From: a virus
Lineage: Duplodnaviria; Heunggongvirae; Uroviricota; Caudoviricetes
Direction: 5' to 3' (one strand)
Virus record (IMG/VR): IMGVR_UViG_2630968342_000019
Length of the DNA stretch: 34,787 nt
How positions within the stretch are numbered: the stretch's first letter is position 1; every line of letters starts with the position of its first letter. Of this stretch, positions 24,573 through 31,260 are shown one piece after another. Below the pieces are notes generated by a model. That model was not told where the DNA came from and searched no databases. It worked only from the letters and a program-made list of their open reading frames with translations. The translations under genes and the position numbers were made by a program.

Positions 24573-24815
24573 CGCCCGCTTCATGGGGCGGTTTTAATGC
24601 AGTTGCACAGCCATGTCAAAGCCATGTCAACACTAGCAGTATGTAAAAAGAGCAGATATAAGAAACAAATGCAGTTTCATGCAAAAAGCGACACACATCA
24701 TGTCATGAAACAAAGCCGCTAATGAACACTTGCTTTGGTTATCTTAAGGTTTTATCTTCAGCCTAACCTATTGATTGCATGAAACTAAAATGAACTCTCA
24801 GCAAGGAACGACTAT

Positions 24816-26774
24816 ATGTCAGATTTCGAAATTAAAATTGATTTGAATGTGCTAAATCACCTAGGGATGAGTCTCTATTCCAATACTCCCGCGGTACTAA
24901 CTGAGATTATATCAAATGCATGGGATGCAGATGCTCAAAATGTAGAAATTACACTTGATGTTGAGAAAGGAGAGGTCATCATTAAAGATGATGGTCATGG
25001 CATGTCTAAAGATGACATTATTAATAAGTTCCTAAAAGTCGGTTATGCTCGCAGGGAACATGGAAGAGCCAAAAGCGATCATCTAAAACGTCAAGTTATG
25101 GGCAGAAAAGGTATTGGTAAGCTTGCCATGTTTTCACTTGCCAATAAAATCCAAGTTTATTCTTACAAAAAGGGGGAACAGCCTCAGGCCTTTGAGGTAG
25201 ATGTCAAAGATTTACAGCAAAGTATCAAAGAATCAAAAAACTATATTGCTGACTCCCTTGAAATACCCGAAAATCTTGCTTACGGCACTACAATTAAATT
25301 ATTTGAACTAAAAAAAGCCATTGATAGGACTCAAACTTACCTCAGAAAGCGAATAGCTCGTCGATTTAGCATTATTGGCCCCAACCATAACTTTACAGTT
25401 AAAATTAATGGGACCGATATTACACCGGCAGATAGAGATTTCCTTTCAGATCTCGAGTTCATTTGGGAATTTGGCGAATCCGACCCTGAAAGGATAAAAT
25501 CCTGCACAAACATCACACAAAAAAACATATTACCAAATACTATTACCTTTGAAGGAAAAGATGTAAAAGTTAGTGGGTACATTGGCAGTGTAGTTAAGCC
25601 ATCACAGTTAAAGAAAGACCCTGAAATATCTAACAACAGCATTACTGTAATCTCTCACGGACGTGTTTTTGAGGAGGACATATTATTAGAATTTGGAAGT
25701 GCTAAAGTATTCACCAATTATCTGGTCGGTGAAATAGTCGCCGATTTTCTAGATGATAACGAAAAGCCTGATATGGCAACATCTTCTCGTCAAAAACTAC
25801 AACAGAATGATCCAAGATACCCTGTACTTAAAGGTTTTCTGGAAAGAACGCTACAACTAATCGATAAAGATTGGGATAAATGGAGACGCGAAAAAGGAGT
25901 AAATGAAGTTAAAAGCAATACTCCAATAGTAAGTGAATGGCTGAATTCTCTCAAAAAACATGAGAGAGAAAGTGCCGAAAAGTTAATTGGACGAGTAAAC
26001 ACATTCCGTTTTTCTGGTAATGAGGAAGAACAAAAAGCAGCAAGAAAAACCGTATTAAAAAATACGGTATTAGCCTTTGAAAGACTTAGAATTCAAGACA
26101 ACCTTGATGCATTAGATAAAATAAGCAACCTTCAATCAGAAAATTTTAAAGATGTATTTGCATCTGTCAATGACATTGAAGCAAGCATGTTTTATGAAAT
26201 TACTTCGCAACGCCTTAAAGTAATTGAAAAATTCCAAAAAATAACTGATGAAAATCAGCTTGAAAGAGCTGTACAAATGTATTTATATGATCATTTATGG
26301 TTATTGGATCCTTCATGGGAAAGAGTCACAGGCACATCTGTTATGGAGCAAACATTGACCAAGGAACTAAAACAGATAAACCCTGATGCTGCTAGCGGTG
26401 CTCGTATTGATATCGCTTTCAAAACCGTTTCTGGCAAGCATGTAATTATTGAGATGAAACGACCTAAAGTGCACCCAGATATAATGAACCTAGTCGCACA
26501 AGGTAATAAATATGTACAGGCAACGACACAATGGTTCTCCAATAACCCTAAAAATTGCCCAGGTGGAAATATACCGCATATAGAAGTAATATTCCTGGTT
26601 GGCTCTGGATATTTACAAGAGAACCAACACTTTATAAATATGCAATTACTTTCTATCAATGGAAAAATATTGACATATAATGACCTAATCGTGCAATCAA
26701 AACAAGCCTATGCTGAATATCAAGACAAAAAGAATGATGCAGCTAGAATTATGAAAATAGTTGAGGGAATCTAA
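24816..26774 (+). CDS. GHKL-type (Bergerat-fold) ATPase fused to a predicted PD-(D/E)xK-like nuclease domain; cargo at the P2 tin/old position
   Basis: 652-aa ORF with an AAGGA Shine-Dalgarno. N-terminal GHKL motifs read directly: N-box E-IIS-NAWDA, G1 box DDGHGM, G2 box GRKGIG. C-terminal region contains ...GARIDIAF-x11-VIIEMKRPK..., consistent with a D...E-x-K nuclease core. AT-rich composition contrasts with the phage core. Confidence 0.75.
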   Translation: MSDFEIKIDLNVLNHLGMSLYSNTPAVLTEIISNAWDADAQNVEITLDVEKGEVIIKDDGHGMSKDDIINKFLKVGYARREHGRAKSDHLKRQVMGRKGIGKLAMFSLANKIQVYSYKKGEQPQAFEVDVKDLQQSIKESKNYIADSLEIPENLAYGTTIKLFELKKAIDRTQTYLRKRIARRFSIIGPNHNFTVKINGTDITPADRDFLSDLEFIWEFGESDPERIKSCTNITQKNILPNTITFEGKDVKVSGYIGSVVKPSQLKKDPEISNNSITVISHGRVFEEDILLEFGSAKVFTNYLVGEIVADFLDDNEKPDMATSSRQKLQQNDPRYPVLKGFLERTLQLIDKDWDKWRREKGVNEVKSNTPIVSEWLNSLKKHERESAEKLIGRVNTFRFSGNEEEQKAARKTVLKNTVLAFERLRIQDNLDALDKISNLQSENFKDVFASVNDIEASMFYEITSQRLKVIEKFQKITDENQLERAVQMYLYDHLWLLDPSWERVTGTSVMEQTLTKELKQINPDAASGARIDIAFKTVSGKHVIIEMKRPKVHPDIMNLVAQGNKYVQATTQWFSNNPKNCPGGNIPHIEVIFLVGSGYLQENQHFINMQLLSINGKILTYNDLIVQSKQAYAEYQDKKNDAARIMKIVEGI

Positions 26775-26779
26775 TTATA

Positions 26780-26803
26780 CCCCCCTGTTTTTTGACAGGG
26801 GGG
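26780..26803. terminator. GC-rich hairpin between convergent genes (probable bidirectional terminator)
   Basis: Perfect 9-bp stem CCCCCCTGT / ACAGGGGGG with loop TTTTTG, placed between the stop of the GHKL gene (26774) and the stop of the methyltransferase (26816); flanking U-tracts are weak. Confidence 0.5.
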
Positions 26804-26815
26804 ATGACATAAGTT

Positions 26816-27865
26816 TTAAATATTCATTTCTGACAAATGTTTTAAAATAGTTTCACCTACGACCTCACCAAGCCTAACAGGAACAGCATTACCTATTAAA
26901 CGCGCAACTGTTCTCATTTCAATTTTTACATCATCAGGCCAAAACTCATACTTTTCTGGGAATGACTGTAATAGCGCAGCCTCTCTTAAACTTAATGCTC
27001 TATTTTGGACAGGGTGCCCAAAGCGTCCATTCCCATATCCAATACATTGAGTTGTAATTGTCGGTCCAAGTTTATCCCAACACATTCTCCCATATACAGC
27101 AGTATATGTAGAACCACTTTCTTTTGTATGACATTTTGCTCTTAGCTCTTCTGGCCAATCACGCCATGTTCCACCAGGTTTTGATGCCATTATTCTTTTT
27201 ATATTAATATCAGATAATGATGCAGAGCGATGTAGTTTATCTCCAGCGTGAACAGCACCGGCACTAATTTCAGGAAGATTACCGATTATATCTCGCACCG
27301 TTTTATAATCATTCTTCTCATGAGTTGGTGGAATTATTTCTATTTCTCCATATTTTGATGCCAATAACACTAATCTTGAACGACTTTGTGCCATTCCATA
27401 GTCTGGACAAAACACCACCCCATACCAAACAAAATAGCCATCATTTTTAAGAGACTTAATGAAGTCCTTAAAAACCTTATGATTCACCACTCGGGGAACG
27501 TTTTCCATTGTAATAATATCTGGCTTTGCAAATTTAATTTGCTTAGCAAAGCTATAAAGCAAAGACCATCTTTTATCTTTTGAACGTACTACCCCTAATT
27601 TAGCACTATTAGTATAGCTTGAAAAAGGTTGGCATGGGGCACAACCAGCCAAAACTCGAACCTTCGCTCCTTCGAAATATTTAACTAATTCGCCGTCCTC
27701 AATGTCTGTAACACTTTTCTGGACAAAGAGTGATTTATTATTTGTCTCATAGGCAAATCGACAGGCTGCATCTATATCATAACCTGCAACTACATTAAGC
27801 CCCGACTTCTGAAGACCGTGAGTCAAGCCACCCGCGCCACAGAATAAATCAACAACCTTAATCAA
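26816..27865 (-). CDS. DNA (cytosine-5)-methyltransferase, Dcm-type
   Basis: C5-MTase motifs read from the translation: motif I DLFCGAGG, motif IV PCQPFS, motif VI ENV (TMENVPRVV), motif VIII QSRSR. Likely start is the TTG at 27865 (M/L-IKVVDLFCGAGG) preceded by AAGGAGG with a 6-nt spacer; the track ORF is extended to an upstream TTG at 27967. Confidence 0.85.
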   Translation of the reverse strand: MIKVVDLFCGAGGLTHGLQKSGLNVVAGYDIDAACRFAYETNNKSLFVQKSVTDIEDGELVKYFEGAKVRVLAGCAPCQPFSSYTNSAKLGVVRSKDKRWSLLYSFAKQIKFAKPDIITMENVPRVVNHKVFKDFIKSLKNDGYFVWYGVVFCPDYGMAQSRSRLVLLASKYGEIEIIPPTHEKNDYKTVRDIIGNLPEISAGAVHAGDKLHRSASLSDINIKRIMASKPGGTWRDWPEELRAKCHTKESGSTYTAVYGRMCWDKLGPTITTQCIGYGNGRFGHPVQNRALSLREAALLQSFPEKYEFWPDDVKIEMRTVARLIGNAVPVRLGEVVGETILKHLSEMNI

Positions 27866-27933
27866 GATAAACCTCCTTCTAATGCTGTGGGGATTGTAGC
27901 ATTGTTCTTTCTCATCATCGATGTTTACTTGAT

Positions 27934-27960
27934 GCTTGATTTGTGAATACAAAATCAAGC
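27934..27960. promoter_or_regulatory. 9-bp inverted repeat in the A-methyltransferase intergenic region (candidate operator or attenuator)
   Basis: GCTTGATTT (27934..27942) and AAATCAAGC (27952..27960) with a 9-bp spacer, between the A stop and the methyltransferase ribosome-binding site; no U-tract follows. Confidence 0.35.
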
Positions 27961-27976
27961 ATGTCAATCATTATTG

Positions 27977-30256
27977 TTAGTTTGTTTCAAATCCCGCCCA
28001 ACCATCAGAAATCGGATATGAAAACGTTTTCCCATCATAATTTACGGTCGCGCCACGCGCCAGCGCCTCAAGCTCCCATCGCTGCGGCCTGATACCGTTC
28101 TGAGCAAGGTCAACGCGGATACGGGTAATTTGCATTCTTTCCGACCGGGTCAGTCTGGCCGATGGTGCAATTTCATGTGGTTTTAACGAGCTTCCGTTTC
28201 TTTGCTGACGACTTGGCGTTCTCCGACCGTGTTTTAATGCACCTCTGAGCGCCCTCACGACCTCCGGGTCACTCCATTCGATAACACCGTCATCAACCAG
28301 ATTAAGCACTGCTGCGGCGTGCTCAGAAGGTGTGGGAGCCGGTAACGAAGTATCACCACCGGTGAGTTTTCCACAGTTATTGACAGGACTCCGAGGCGCG
28401 GCGATGCCGCTTTTTAAAGTCAAAGGCTCAACGACCGGCACTTTCGGAACAATGCGCCAGTCCGTCGTTCTGGTGATATGAATATGACGCGCGCCGAGAT
28501 GCGGCGCGTAAATGCCGACCACTCTCTCGACTTCTTCCTCGTACTCGTTAACTTCATCCGACGGACTACGGGCAACCCTGACAGTCTGACAATCGCGCGG
28601 AACATTTGCTCCACCCTGCGCGCTGATATACAACGCAAAATCACCACTGTCTGCGGCAGCGCGTGCAGCCTCGACGCGTTCGTCAAACTCATCAGCAATG
28701 CTGACGCCGCGAGGCAATTTGCGTAGTTCACGGTAAGCCCCCATTGTCGGCAGGCCAACCGTTTTAAATTGCGGAATGCGCCACGTTGACGCCCATGCGG
28801 TAACAGCCGCGGCAGTGTCTTTCAGCGGCCTGCCGGTATCGTTATCGAGCTGACCATCCAGTGCATAGCCATCGATGTTTTTTGAAATGTATTTCGCGAT
28901 ATACCCCGCAGCACCGCCCCGGTTAAGGTGTTTTGCCTGAAAACGGTTTCGCGCAGCTCCTCTTTCGTCGCCATCCTCTTTGAGCGCGTAGCGACGCATG
29001 ATTTCAATAATCTGGTTACGCTGGCGTGGATTACAAAAAAGCATCATATGCCAGTGCGGCGTTCCGTCGTGGTGTGGCTCGACGACTCGCAAACCGTAGA
29101 CCTGTAAATCATTATCCTTGAATGCCGTGCGCATCAGGCTCCAGATACGGCAGAGATAACGCTGCGCATCCTTTGGATTAAATGCCTCATCGTTCCAGCC
29201 GTGATTTAGCTGGACGGTTTTACTTTCTCCTTTTCCGACCTGACGTGTCGGGTGATACTTTGACGGCGCGGTCAGCGTGATAAACATCCCCACATCACCC
29301 TCTGCTGCGGCGTAACGCTCAATACCGGCGATGGTGTTCATCAGCTCCATCCGGCGAATTTCTGGATTAGAAATACTGCCCATCACCTTACTGATAAGGT
29401 CGATGCGCTCGCCGGTTTCCTTGTTTTCAAGGTCACACGATTTAAGAAACTCCAGATTTGCCTGGCGGCGCGCACGCACATCACGAATGGCATGTTTACT
29501 GGCATAAGGAGAACGGTCTTTATTGACCTCCCCGACAGCAATCAGTAACGCCTCATGCCAGCGCATACGCTGGCCTTTAAGCTGATGAGTCCACCACTCA
29601 TCGTTAAACAGACGGGCAATGGCAGAATATGCCTGCCTCGTGGTTATCTGTCCTTTACGGTATTTTTTCCAGTAGAGCGGGGAAATATTGAAAGCACGTG
29701 CAGCGCCAGCAACATGACCATACAGGTGAGTCTGCGCCTCATCCGTAAACAGCGATTCTTTTTCGCCATGTGCATCAACCCATGCATCGCAGAGTTCCTC
29801 ATACATCATGAAAAGCTGCGATGAGATACGGGCGGCAAACTTTTTCAGCTCCTTGTCATTCATTCCAGGCAGGCGCGCATAGTGGTCACGCTCTGCCAGA
29901 AACAGCAACGACGCGTCGGTGTTCATTTCATGGCGCTGATTCACGCGCTCAATGCGCGGCCATAAACGACGCTGAAAAGTGGATGTGAGGAAATAAAACC
30001 CGTGCACCGGGCTTTTATTGCGCCGGATGTAGTCATAGCGTGAAGTAAACAGCGAGCGCAAAAAGTAAGGCAGGCGGTTAATCGTGGATAAAACACCTTG
30101 CACCTGACGCATCTCGTCACGTGTAAGGGGTCTTTCGCGCCCGACGGCCTCGCGTGGCGCGTTCCATGCATAAGCACCGGTAAACGCCTTACCGGTGCCT
30201 GCAGCAAATGCTGACGGAGGTACGCAGGTGTATTGCTCCTGGAAAGAATGACTCAT
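27977..30256 (-). CDS. A: Replication initiation protein (P2 gpA-like rolling-circle endonuclease)
   Basis: 759-aa ORF (P2 A is about 761 aa) recognised as gpA; last gene of the early operon on this strand. Confidence 0.92.
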   Translation of the reverse strand: MSHSFQEQYTCVPPSAFAAGTGKAFTGAYAWNAPREAVGRERPLTRDEMRQVQGVLSTINRLPYFLRSLFTSRYDYIRRNKSPVHGFYFLTSTFQRRLWPRIERVNQRHEMNTDASLLFLAERDHYARLPGMNDKELKKFAARISSQLFMMYEELCDAWVDAHGEKESLFTDEAQTHLYGHVAGAARAFNISPLYWKKYRKGQITTRQAYSAIARLFNDEWWTHQLKGQRMRWHEALLIAVGEVNKDRSPYASKHAIRDVRARRQANLEFLKSCDLENKETGERIDLISKVMGSISNPEIRRMELMNTIAGIERYAAAEGDVGMFITLTAPSKYHPTRQVGKGESKTVQLNHGWNDEAFNPKDAQRYLCRIWSLMRTAFKDNDLQVYGLRVVEPHHDGTPHWHMMLFCNPRQRNQIIEIMRRYALKEDGDERGAARNRFQAKHLNRGGAAGYIAKYISKNIDGYALDGQLDNDTGRPLKDTAAAVTAWASTWRIPQFKTVGLPTMGAYRELRKLPRGVSIADEFDERVEAARAAADSGDFALYISAQGGANVPRDCQTVRVARSPSDEVNEYEEEVERVVGIYAPHLGARHIHITRTTDWRIVPKVPVVEPLTLKSGIAAPRSPVNNCGKLTGGDTSLPAPTPSEHAAAVLNLVDDGVIEWSDPEVVRALRGALKHGRRTPSRQQRNGSSLKPHEIAPSARLTRSERMQITRIRVDLAQNGIRPQRWELEALARGATVNYDGKTFSYPISDGWAGFETN

Positions 30257-31260
30257 TCACATACACCGGCATAGACACTACTGCAAACTGACTTATCATT
30301 CACCGAAGCCAGCAAATCAAACTGTGCCCCGCCACGCGTGGTCATCGCCCAGTCACGATAAGACTCAATTCCGTAAGCATCGACAGTAATAATATCAATG
30401 CGGCGTTCCGCACGACGCGGGTCATGAGTTGACGGGAAGAAAGTAGAATTTCCGCGTCTGGAGCATGCGGCGACAAGTCGCTCCCATTCCGCAACACGCT
30501 TAACCTCTTCCGGCCAGCGACTAAAAATTTCAGCTAATTCAGACTTTCTGGCGTGGATGCAGGGCATACAACCGACACGACTGCATCCCTGCTGGTATAA
30601 CGGATTAGGTTTAATTCCATGACGTCTTGCAAATGCAAATACCTCCTCATGCGTCCAGTTCAGAATAGGACGGTATACATGGAGCCCGGGCGTATTGTCC
30701 GCATCCTCTTCCCAGGCAGGCAGACCCGCGCGCGCAGGAGACTCCTGAGCGCGAACCCCCTGCCAGCTAATTACCTCATCAAACTCATTAAGCGCAGGTA
30801 ACACGACCTGAGTACGTACTGGCTCATGTTTAAGGTCAAAAGTGCAAAATCTGGCTTTAGTGGAAGGAAATCGCCCTTTCCACATGCACAAATCAAGAAA
30901 TGGGATACCAGTAGGCTTGAGAATTTCCAGCGCACAATTGATGCGCTCTGCCGCTTCCCCCGGAGACATTCCGCACTCTTCAACCAGAGAAACAGGCCAT
31001 TTCTCAGCAATAAACTTGCGCTTACCTTCAATCTGTCGGGAGAAGTCAGCTTTAACCCGTTTAACCGGCCCGAGTCGGTTCTCCAGATAATCGAGATACT
31101 CCATTGTCTGCGGATGCTCATGCCCGGTGTCTGCAAAAACCGGCAAAAAATGCACACCGCTTTCAATACCAACAAGCCATTGAGCAAGGCTATCCTTTCC
31201 GCCAGAAACAGAAATAATATTGATAGAGCTTTCAGCTCGGCAGCGGGTATCAACTATCAT
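30253..31260 (-). CDS. PAPS reductase family (PP-loop ATP pyrophosphatase) protein, DndC/CysH-like
   Basis: 335-aa ORF with PP-loop SGGKDS near the N-terminus, DTGHEHPQT motif and a C-terminal cysteine cluster (CSRVGCMPC); stop overlaps the A start, so it is translationally coupled in the early operon. Not part of the P2 reference gene set as I recall it. Confidence 0.8.
   Translation of the reverse strand: MIVDTRCRAESSINIISVSGGKDSLAQWLVGIESGVHFLPVFADTGHEHPQTMEYLDYLENRLGPVKRVKADFSRQIEGKRKFIAEKWPVSLVEECGMSPGEAAERINCALEILKPTGIPFLDLCMWKGRFPSTKARFCTFDLKHEPVRTQVVLPALNEFDEVISWQGVRAQESPARAGLPAWEEDADNTPGLHVYRPILNWTHEEVFAFARRHGIKPNPLYQQGCSRVGCMPCIHARKSELAEIFSRWPEEVKRVAEWERLVAACSRRGNSTFFPSTHDPRRAERRIDIITVDAYGIESYRDWAMTTRGGAQFDLLASVNDKSVCSSVYAGVCE

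What the first reader, a model, noticed from the sequence alone, without database searches (positions are those of the whole stretch)
24573..27970. Cargo island at the P2 tin/old hotspot: GHKL ATPase fused to a PD-(D/E)xK-like nuclease, convergent with a Dcm-type C5-methyltransferase
Where P2 carries tin and old (between cos and A), this prophage has an AT-rich block with two convergent genes separated by a GC-rich hairpin. The 652-aa plus-strand protein has textbook GHKL motifs (E-x3-NAxDA, DxGxG, GxxGxG as in MutL, Hsp90 and MORC) and a C-terminal region with a D...E-x-K signature (IDIAF...VIIEMKRPK). The partner is a bona fide C5-MTase (FCGAGG, PCQ, ENV, QxRxR). This P2 locus is a known hotspot for anti-phage cargo, and MORC-like GHKL ATPases have been reported from comparative genomics in restriction-modification-like neighbourhoods, but I do not recognise this exact fused architecture as a named system. 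Hypotheses: (i) an ATP-dependent restriction-like nuclease with a protective methylase; (ii) a modification-dependent nuclease with an unrelated phage methylase; (iii) a MutL/Vsr-like mismatch-nicking module coupled to cytosine methylation. All three are inference.
Basis: partly seen in the sequence, partly recalled or inferred. Interest (0 to 1): 0.88.

Follow-up and report, generated by a model that had tools for sequence, protein, structure and literature searches.

The report
Known HgiDII-type restriction-modification cassette in P2 prophage
The two convergent genes are a restriction enzyme and its protective cytosine methylase, of a family already named in NCBI's NCBIfam protein-family models (BbrUII/HgiDII, probable target GTCGAC), carried as cargo in the known variable slot of a P2-like E. 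coli prophage, so the finding is real but ordinary.

Summary
An AT-rich block of about 3.4 kb lies between P2 gpQ/cos and gpA. It carries a 652-aa GHKL ATPase fused to a nuclease and a convergent C5 methyltransferase, separated by a strong hairpin.

The architecture is already named. The 652-aa protein matches NCBIfam NF050001, "BbrUII/HgiDII family restriction enzyme", over its full length (751 bits, cut-off 550). PADLOC calls the pair Type II REase plus MTase. RefSeq uses these names in 30 of 5,426 complete E. coli genomes. Phage PhiR44_1 carries the same cassette annotated "ParaMORC3 + Dcm". Rousset et al. 2022 list exactly this protein pair at the P2 gpA–gpQ hotspot.

In 80 distant homologue loci from many phyla, 63 have an orthologous C5 methylase directly adjacent. 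The methylase's target-recognition region is as conserved as its catalytic core, which fits one shared specificity. GTCGAC is inferred from M.HgiDII.

The role of the ATPase, and how nine intact methylase-less homologues avoid self-cleavage, remain open.

The parts
24608..24815 (+). AT-rich non-coding leader upstream of the restriction gene. It presumably holds the promoter and operator, and marks the left edge of the cargo.
   Evidence: Similarity to the P2 backbone stops at query position about 35. The leader contains the direct repeat GCCATGTCAA twice (24610-24619 and 24621-24630) and a perfect 12-nt inverted repeat at 24673-24684 / 24775-24786. The consensus scan found no sigma-70-like site in this stretch.
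24816..25325 (+). Restriction enzyme, GHKL (Bergerat-fold) ATPase domain, aa 1-170.
   Evidence: Pfam HATPase_c_3 covers aa 26-149 with E = 2.3e-25. E30, N34, D58, G60, G62, G96, G99 and G101 are invariant in the 22-sequence alignment and in all aligned homologues from the 80 loci. Foldseek matches Hsp90-family N-terminal domains.
25326..25805 (+). Restriction enzyme, beta-rich middle (transducer, Hsp90-M/S5-like) domain, aa ~171-330.
   Evidence: The AlphaFold2 model has pLDDT 80-94 here. Foldseek alignments of about 400-450 columns span the N-terminal plus middle domains of Hsp90, TRAP1 and GRP94. The domain limits are approximate.
25806..26303 (+). Restriction enzyme, long helical linker, aa ~331-496.
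   Evidence: DSSP assigns helices 334-496, and confidence is low over aa 427-464. The function of this segment is inferred only.
26304..26774 (+). Restriction enzyme, C-terminal Shedu-like PD-(D/E)xK nuclease domain, aa ~497-652, plus the stop codon.
26780..26803 (.). GC-rich hairpin between the two convergent stop codons, likely a bidirectional terminator.
   Evidence: The sequence is shown. The fold has -21.9 kcal/mol and z = -3.5.
26816..27865 (-). C5 cytosine DNA methyltransferase, 349 aa from TTG 27865; the cognate modification enzyme.
   Evidence: Pfam DNA_methylase gives E = 1.3e-55, PADLOC MTase_II 3e-88 and TIGR00675 (dcm) 1.8e-37. RefSeq WP_000598783 and the PhiR44_1 'Dcm protein' have the same 1050 nt. 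Orthologues at 44-58% identity lie next to the restriction-enzyme homologue in 63 of 80 loci.
27866..27976 (-). Methylase leader and promoter region, up to the stop codon of gpA; the right edge of the cargo.
   Evidence: A TTGACA hexamer lies at 27966-27961 on the minus strand, upstream of the TTG start. gpA ends at 27977. Promoter function is inferred.

Best explanation
The island is a two-gene Type II restriction-modification cassette of the BbrUII/HgiDII family, carried in the gpQ/cos-gpA cargo slot of a P2-like E. coli prophage.

**Shown here**
- Family membership of both genes.
- Domain architecture of the restriction enzyme.
- Conserved linkage of the two genes across phyla.
- Invariant catalytic residues in both enzymatic domains of the restriction enzyme.

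**Inferred**
- The 349-aa m5C methyltransferase marks host and prophage DNA at the family's target. This is most likely GTCGAC, the SalI site, by homology with M.HgiDII and from the conserved target-recognition region.
- The 652-aa enzyme cuts unmodified incoming DNA at that site with its C-terminal Shedu-like PD-(D/E)xK domain.
- The N-terminal GHKL ATPase and middle domain probably dimerise on ATP binding, as in MutL, MORC and Hsp90. This would form a DNA clamp that positions or licenses two nuclease domains on the palindrome.
- In the lysogen the cassette excludes unmodified phages and plasmids that carry the site. It may also stabilise the prophage by post-segregational killing.
- The convergent layout with a shared hairpin terminator keeps the two transcripts separate.
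For: **Family assignment**
- NCBIfam NF050001 (equivalog) matches aa 4-651 at 751 bits against a cut-off of 550, E = 9e-226.
- PADLOC REase_II gives 2e-91 and MTase_II 3e-88.
- An identical E. coli protein is named 'BbrUII/HgiDII family restriction enzyme'.
- One submitter names the methylase M.HgiDII.

**Linkage**
- Among 80 homologue loci at 34-43% identity from many bacterial phyla and archaea, 63 have an orthologous C5 methylase within 500 bp and 4 have a divergent C5 methylase.
- The methylases, at 44-58% identity, are more conserved than the nucleases.
- In closer relatives, at least 17 restriction-enzyme/methylase pairs have the same longest-contig length, which suggests each pair lies on one contig.
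- In E. coli the cassette is always complete: 30 genomes carry all of it and none carries only part.

**Specificity**
- The methylase target-recognition region (aa 176-295) is as conserved as the catalytic motifs across 59 co-located methylases.
- M.HgiDII is an experimentally characterised m5C methylase for GTCGAC (PMC5867850).

**Catalytic domains**
- All GHKL and nuclease catalytic residues are invariant.
- The GHKL N-terminus of R.HgiDII was described in PMC2441816.
Against: - No experiment on this E. coli/P2 cassette was found in the searchable literature.
- I could not align R.HgiDII, R.BbrUII or their methylases directly, because no sequences are held. GTCGAC therefore rests on the NCBIfam name and on conservation of the recognition region.
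- GTCGAC is not depleted in the window: 4 sites against 6.9 ± 2.9 expected.
- Nine of 76 informative homologue loci have no methylase within 6 kb, yet keep every catalytic residue and score 657-785 bits on NF050001. The family therefore does not strictly need an adjacent methylase.
- The one experimentally studied protein of this architecture, VcSduA, defends E. coli without any methylase and is not toxic (PMC12137116).
- The role of ATP is entirely inferred.
Confidence: 0.85

Rival explanations
1. The 652-aa protein is a stand-alone Shedu type 1D immune nuclease like VcSduA. In this reading it is activated by an infection cue through its GHKL domain. The adjacent methylase is an independent phage gene that protects P2 DNA from other hosts' restriction systems.
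For: - The C-terminal domain resembles the Shedu nuclease.
- VcSduA, with the same architecture, works alone and needs both its ATPase and nuclease residues.
- Nine intact homologues have no methylase nearby, and some sit beside GmrSD-like or HNH Type IV genes in apparent defence islands.
Against: - An orthologous methylase is adjacent in 63 of 80 distant loci, and its recognition region is conserved. That linkage across phyla is the signature of a cognate pair.
- The methylase-less loci are scattered through the tree rather than forming a separate clade.
- In E. coli the two genes never occur apart.
- The protein passes the equivalog cut-off of a family named for two restriction enzymes.
- The spacing between the catalytic Glu and Lys is 530 residues in VcSduA but 515-524 in 118 close homologues. 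This is a weak hint that VcSduA belongs to another branch.
Confidence: 0.08
2. The nuclease is modification-dependent (Type IV-like) and attacks foreign methylated DNA. The methylase would then be unrelated to it.
For: GHKL/MORC-type ATPases occur in varied restriction contexts (PMC2292703). Some homologues lie next to Type IV genes.
Against: A nuclease that cuts modified DNA would not be stably and tightly linked across phyla to one orthologous methylase. The Pfam scan of the 652-aa protein found no modification-reader domain such as SRA, EVE or DUF262; it found only GHKL and weak nuclease hits.
Confidence: 0.03
3. The pair is a MutL/Vsr-like mismatch-nicking repair module coupled to cytosine methylation.
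Against: MutL models score about 25 bits against cut-offs of 180-937. There is no Vsr-like ORF in the island. NucS resembles Shedu and restriction-enzyme folds generally. The family is named for restriction enzymes.
Confidence: 0.01

Closest known systems
HgiDII (Herpetosiphon) and BbrUII (Bifidobacterium breve UCC2003) Type II restriction-modification systems; NCBIfam NF050001
   Same: The match to the family model is full-length and above the equivalog cut-off. The architecture is a GHKL N-terminus plus a C-terminal domain, as described for R.HgiDII. The partner is an m5C methylase.
   Different: The host is E. coli and the carrier is a P2-like prophage hotspot. Here the genes are convergent, whereas 58 of the 63 loci with an adjacent orthologous methylase have it upstream on the same strand. 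Specificity and cleavage have not been tested for this member. Identity to the two prototype proteins was not measured.
paraMORC3 family (Iyer, Abhiman & Aravind 2008, PMC2292703)
   Same: The architecture is a GHKL domain, an S5-like middle domain and a C-terminal restriction-endonuclease-fold domain with an E-D-ExK motif (here E511, D532, E546-x-K548). The family is associated with Dcm-type methylases and prevalent in proteobacteria. The identical cassette in phage PhiR44_1 is annotated ParaMORC3.
   Different: paraMORC3 is a computational family name without a demonstrated activity. I had no reference paraMORC3 sequence to compare with.
Shedu type 1D with a GHKL N-terminal domain; VcSduA of Vibrio cholerae (PMC12137116; bioRxiv 10.1101/2023.08.10.552793)
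   Same: Both combine a GHKL ATPase, a middle domain and a DUF4263-like PD-(D/E)xK nuclease. In VcSduA the equivalent Glu (E27A) and Lys (K557A) are both essential for defence.
   Different: VcSduA acts alone, without a methylase. The window protein scores below the Pfam SduA_C threshold (17.5 against 27 bits). Its family is tightly linked to a methylase. The Glu-Lys spacing differs.
P2 old and tin, and other cargo of the gpA-gpQ hotspot (Rousset et al. 2022, PMC9122126)
   Same: The cassette occupies the same slot next to cos. [quoted passage not shown]
   Different: The genes and mechanism are unrelated to old (OLD-family ATPase-Toprim nuclease) and tin. I found no sign that Rousset et al. 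tested this cassette.

Membership tests
BbrUII/HgiDII Type II restriction-modification system | The restriction enzyme matches the family model NF050001 above its curated cut-off over its full length. | tested here: met
   751.4 bits against a cut-off of 550; aa 4-651 align to model positions 1-658 of 659.
BbrUII/HgiDII Type II restriction-modification system | A cognate C5 cytosine methyltransferase lies next to the restriction gene. | tested here: met
   Pfam DNA_methylase gives 1.3e-55. The two genes are 41 nt apart. Orthologous methylases are adjacent in 63 of 80 homologue loci.
BbrUII/HgiDII Type II restriction-modification system | The restriction enzyme has an N-terminal GHKL domain and a separate C-terminal domain, as in R.HgiDII. 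| tested here: met
   the literature description is.
BbrUII/HgiDII Type II restriction-modification system | Cleavage is site-specific (GTCGAC) and blocked by the partner's m5C methylation. | not testable with these tools
   This is inferred only, from the conserved methylase recognition region and the published M.HgiDII specificity. BbrUII being a SalI-type enzyme rests on my memory of O'Connell Motherway et al. 2009, a paper that is not held.
paraMORC3 | A GHKL ATPase with intact ATP-binding motifs followed by an S5-like middle domain. | tested here: met
   The GHKL motifs are invariant. Foldseek alignments cover the Hsp90-family N-terminal plus middle domains. The S5 fold itself was not tested separately.
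paraMORC3 | A conserved C-terminal restriction-endonuclease-fold domain with an E-D-ExK motif. | tested here: met
Shedu (SduA) | The DUF4263 / SduA_C nuclease domain (PF14082) is present. | tested here: inconclusive
Shedu (SduA) | A single-gene system that acts without a modification partner. | tested here: not met
   The methylase is adjacent here, and a C5 methylase is adjacent in 67 of 76 informative homologue loci.
MutL mismatch-repair protein with Vsr | A match to MutL family models and the presence of a Vsr endonuclease gene. | tested here: not met
   MutL models score 20-25 bits against cut-offs of 180-937. There is no Vsr-like ORF in 24573-27970.
P2 old/tin hotspot cargo | The cargo lies between gpQ/cos and gpA of a P2-like prophage. 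| tested here: met
   the hotspot is defined in PMC9122126 and this pair is listed there.

The most novel reading that the evidence does not exclude
The BbrUII/HgiDII 'Type II restriction enzymes' and the GHKL-type Shedu nucleases such as VcSduA could be one continuum of ATP-gated nucleases. In this reading the methylase is an optional self-marker rather than an obligatory antidote.

The window enzyme would then be licensed by ATP-driven clamp closure or by an infection cue, not only by an unmethylated GTCGAC site. The intact methylase-less homologues (9 of 76 informative loci) and the tandem paralogues would work in a Shedu-like mode.

My evidence does not exclude this, because neither specificity, ATP dependence nor toxicity was tested.
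Probability: 0.2. Interest if true: 0.45.

Novelty: already known. Interest (0 to 1): 0.15.

Why it matters
The practical value is small.
- It is a clean example of a Type II restriction-modification cassette carried in the P2 cos-proximal defence hotspot.
- It suggests that lysogens such as E. coli G6/7 or APEC O2-211 restrict unmodified DNA carrying the target site, probably GTCGAC. That would matter for transformation and phage work with those strains.

One general point is worth a sentence. Three literatures describe the same architecture: REBASE-type restriction enzymes (HgiDII), paraMORC3, and Shedu type 1D (VcSduA). None of the papers I read links the HgiDII name to the other two.

The role of the GHKL ATPase in a palindrome-cutting restriction enzyme is still unknown. 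No member of the family has a solved structure.

Tried and rejected
- **GTCGAC avoidance in the window.** There are 4 sites against 6.9 ± 2.9 expected, which is not informative.
- **Flanking repeats as insertion scars.** None were convincing.
- **Foldseek with the full-length model.** The Hsp90 family dominated the hits and hid the C-terminal domain, so a separate domain model was needed.
- **Obtaining the VcSduA sequence or homologue list.** Supplementary Table 7 is truncated in the held copy, so the relationship to VcSduA could only be guessed from residue spacing.
- **Primary BbrII paper.** PMC3815753 is not held, and text searches for 'BbrII' with 'neoschizomer' found nothing.
- **Promoter scan.** It found no more sites than the shuffled controls, and none in either leader.
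- **MutL/Vsr and Type IV readings.** Both were considered and rejected.
- **A controller (C) protein.** The island holds no ORF that could encode one; the 126-nt ORF annotated in PhiR44_1 upstream of the restriction gene was not examined.
Full report
**1. The observation**

All the described features are present.
- ORF 24816..26774 (+) encodes 652 aa. It carries the GHKL motifs E30-x3-N34, D58-x-G60-x-G62 and G96-x2-G99-x-G101. It also carries a nuclease-like D532 and E546-x-K548.
- The convergent ORF 26816..27967 (-) carries all C5 methyltransferase motifs. Its 383-aa reading is over-extended. An AGGAGG site followed by TTG at 27865 gives 349 aa, which matches the RefSeq and phage annotations.
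- GC falls from about 0.55 to 0.34-0.40 between about 24600 and 27950.
- A 10-bp G/C hairpin at 26780-26803 lies between the two stop codons. Its free energy is -21.9 kcal/mol, z = -3.5.
- The flanks are P2 gpP, gpQ and gpA.
- The window is 100% identical to a P2-like prophage next to cpxP in E. coli G6/7.
- P2 backbone similarity ends about 35 nt into the stated interval, so the cargo begins near 24608.

**2. Identity of the genes**

The 652-aa protein matches NCBIfam NF050001, the equivalog "BbrUII/HgiDII family restriction enzyme". The match runs end to end at 751 bits against a cut-off of 550.

PADLOC's REBASE-derived models call it REase_II (2e-91) and call its partner MTase_II (3e-88). 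A standard defence-system annotator would therefore report a Type II restriction-modification system.

Pfam sees only HATPase_c_3 in the nuclease protein and DNA_methylase in the partner.

The identical protein, WP_001279022, is already named this way in RefSeq and UniRef. One submitter names the partner, WP_000598783, M.HgiDII.

**3. Distribution**

The complete cassette, at 99.8% identity or more, is in 30 of 5,426 complete E. coli genomes. It is never partial. The other roughly 280 blast hits cover only the 35-nt P2 backbone edge.

Phage PhiR44_1 (PV340563.1) carries it between gpQ and gpA, annotated "ParaMORC3" and "Dcm protein".

Rousset et al. 2022 defined the gpA-gpQ locus as a defence hotspot. 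[quoted passage not shown]

**4. Is the methylase a true partner?**

I fetched 80 loci that encode full-length homologues at 34-43% identity. They come from Proteobacteria, Acidobacteria, Chloroflexi, Actinobacteria, Bacteroidota, Firmicutes, candidate phyla (CPR) and archaea. Results by locus:

| Category | Loci |
|---|---|
| Orthologous C5 methylase (44-58% identity) within 500 bp | 63 |
| More divergent C5 methylase adjacent | 4 |
| Cut by a contig end | 4 |
| No methylase within 6 kb | 9 |

- In 58 of the 63 loci the methylase lies upstream on the same strand, mostly 5-90 bp away.
- The methylases are more conserved than the nucleases.
- Their target-recognition region (aa 176-295) is as conserved as the catalytic core. 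That is not expected if specificities differed.
- M.HgiDII is a characterised m5C methylase for GTCGAC (PMC5867850).
- I recall that BbrUII is a SalI-type enzyme, but I could not check this.

GTCGAC is therefore the likely target. This is an inference.

**5. Structure of the restriction enzyme**
- The full-length AlphaFold2 model has mean pLDDT 76. Its first roughly 330 residues match the Hsp90, TRAP1 and GRP94 N-terminal plus middle domains at about 1e-12.
- A helical linker follows, at aa 334-496.
- Pfam SduA_C hits 17 of 18 family C-termini below threshold.
- E511, D532, E546, K548 and Q562 are invariant, as are the eight checked GHKL motif residues, in the aligned homologues from the 80 loci.
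- In 2008 the C-terminal domain of R.HgiDII was "unassigned to any known fold". The same year paraMORC3 was described with an E-D-ExK restriction-endonuclease-fold C-terminus. Shedu type 1D with a GHKL domain was described in 2023.
- The fold assignment here is therefore a confirmation, not a discovery.

**6. Mechanism**

Shown: family membership, architecture, conserved linkage and intact catalytic residues.

Inferred:
- The methylase protects GTCGAC in host and prophage DNA.
- The nuclease cuts unmodified sites.
- ATP-driven dimerisation of the GHKL domains forms a clamp that positions or licenses two nuclease domains.
- The cassette excludes unmodified invaders and may also act as an addiction module for the prophage.

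From general knowledge, nucleotide-hydrolysing restriction enzymes paired with m5C methylases (CglI, NgoAVII) are a precedent for the ATPase role.

**7. What does not fit neatly**
- Nine methylase-less homologues keep every catalytic residue and score 657-785 bits on NF050001. They are scattered through the tree. Some lie beside GmrSD-like or HNH Type IV genes.
- One Cenarchaeum MAG contributes five of the fetched loci. Several loci, including two of these, hold tandem paralogues.
- VcSduA, with the same architecture, defends alone. Its Glu-Lys spacing of 530 lies outside the 515-524 seen in 118 close homologues, which hints at a different branch.
- An unlinked methylase would explain the orphans, but I could not test that.

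**8. Verdict**

The system is already named, annotated and catalogued at this very locus. I rate novelty as "already known" and interest as low.

Noticed in passing
window 30253-31260 (-): A 335-aa PAPS-reductase-family protein (Pfam PF01507, E = 1e-35) overlaps the start of gpA by 4 nt. It has partial PADLOC hits to SspD, BrxP and DndC. The phage PhiR44_1 lacks it: there gpA is followed directly by orf83. It looks like a second cargo gene, possibly involved in DNA modification.
   Followed up: partly
L010 3784-7986; L012 3534-7962; L026 1131-11025; L031 6001-10446: Some loci carry two or three full-length paralogues of the GHKL-nuclease. In L010 and L012 they lie directly behind the methylase (order M-R-R'). 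One Cenarchaeum MAG (OY282369.1) contributes five of the fetched loci, and only one of them (L026) has an orthologous methylase next to a copy.
   Followed up: partly
L021, L031, L037, L038, L042, L053, L061, L071, L078: These homologues have no methylase within 6 kb. They keep all GHKL and nuclease catalytic residues and pass the NF050001 cut-off. Neighbours include GmrSD_N (L038), an AspBHI-like HNH enzyme (L042) and PDDEXK_1 (L078). How they avoid cutting their own DNA is unexplained.
   Followed up: partly
L002 8001-9979 (Vibrio cholerae GCA_026766275.1): A homologue at 61% identity sits directly after a CI-type repressor gene in a prophage that has gpA and Ogr-like genes. That is a different slot from the one used in E. 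coli, which suggests the cassette moves between prophage cargo sites. The contig ends inside the gene, so the methylase could not be checked.
   Followed up: no
window 24610-24630 and 24673-24786: The leader upstream of the restriction gene has the tandem repeat GCCATGTCAA twice. It also has a perfect 12-nt inverted repeat, AGTTTCATGCAA / TTGCATGAAACT, with arms 90 nt apart. These may be operator sites. The island encodes no controller protein.
   Followed up: no
Rousset et al. 2022, supplementary file 7: [quoted passage not shown] This is another pairing of a GHKL protein with a methylase in a prophage hotspot.
   Followed up: no
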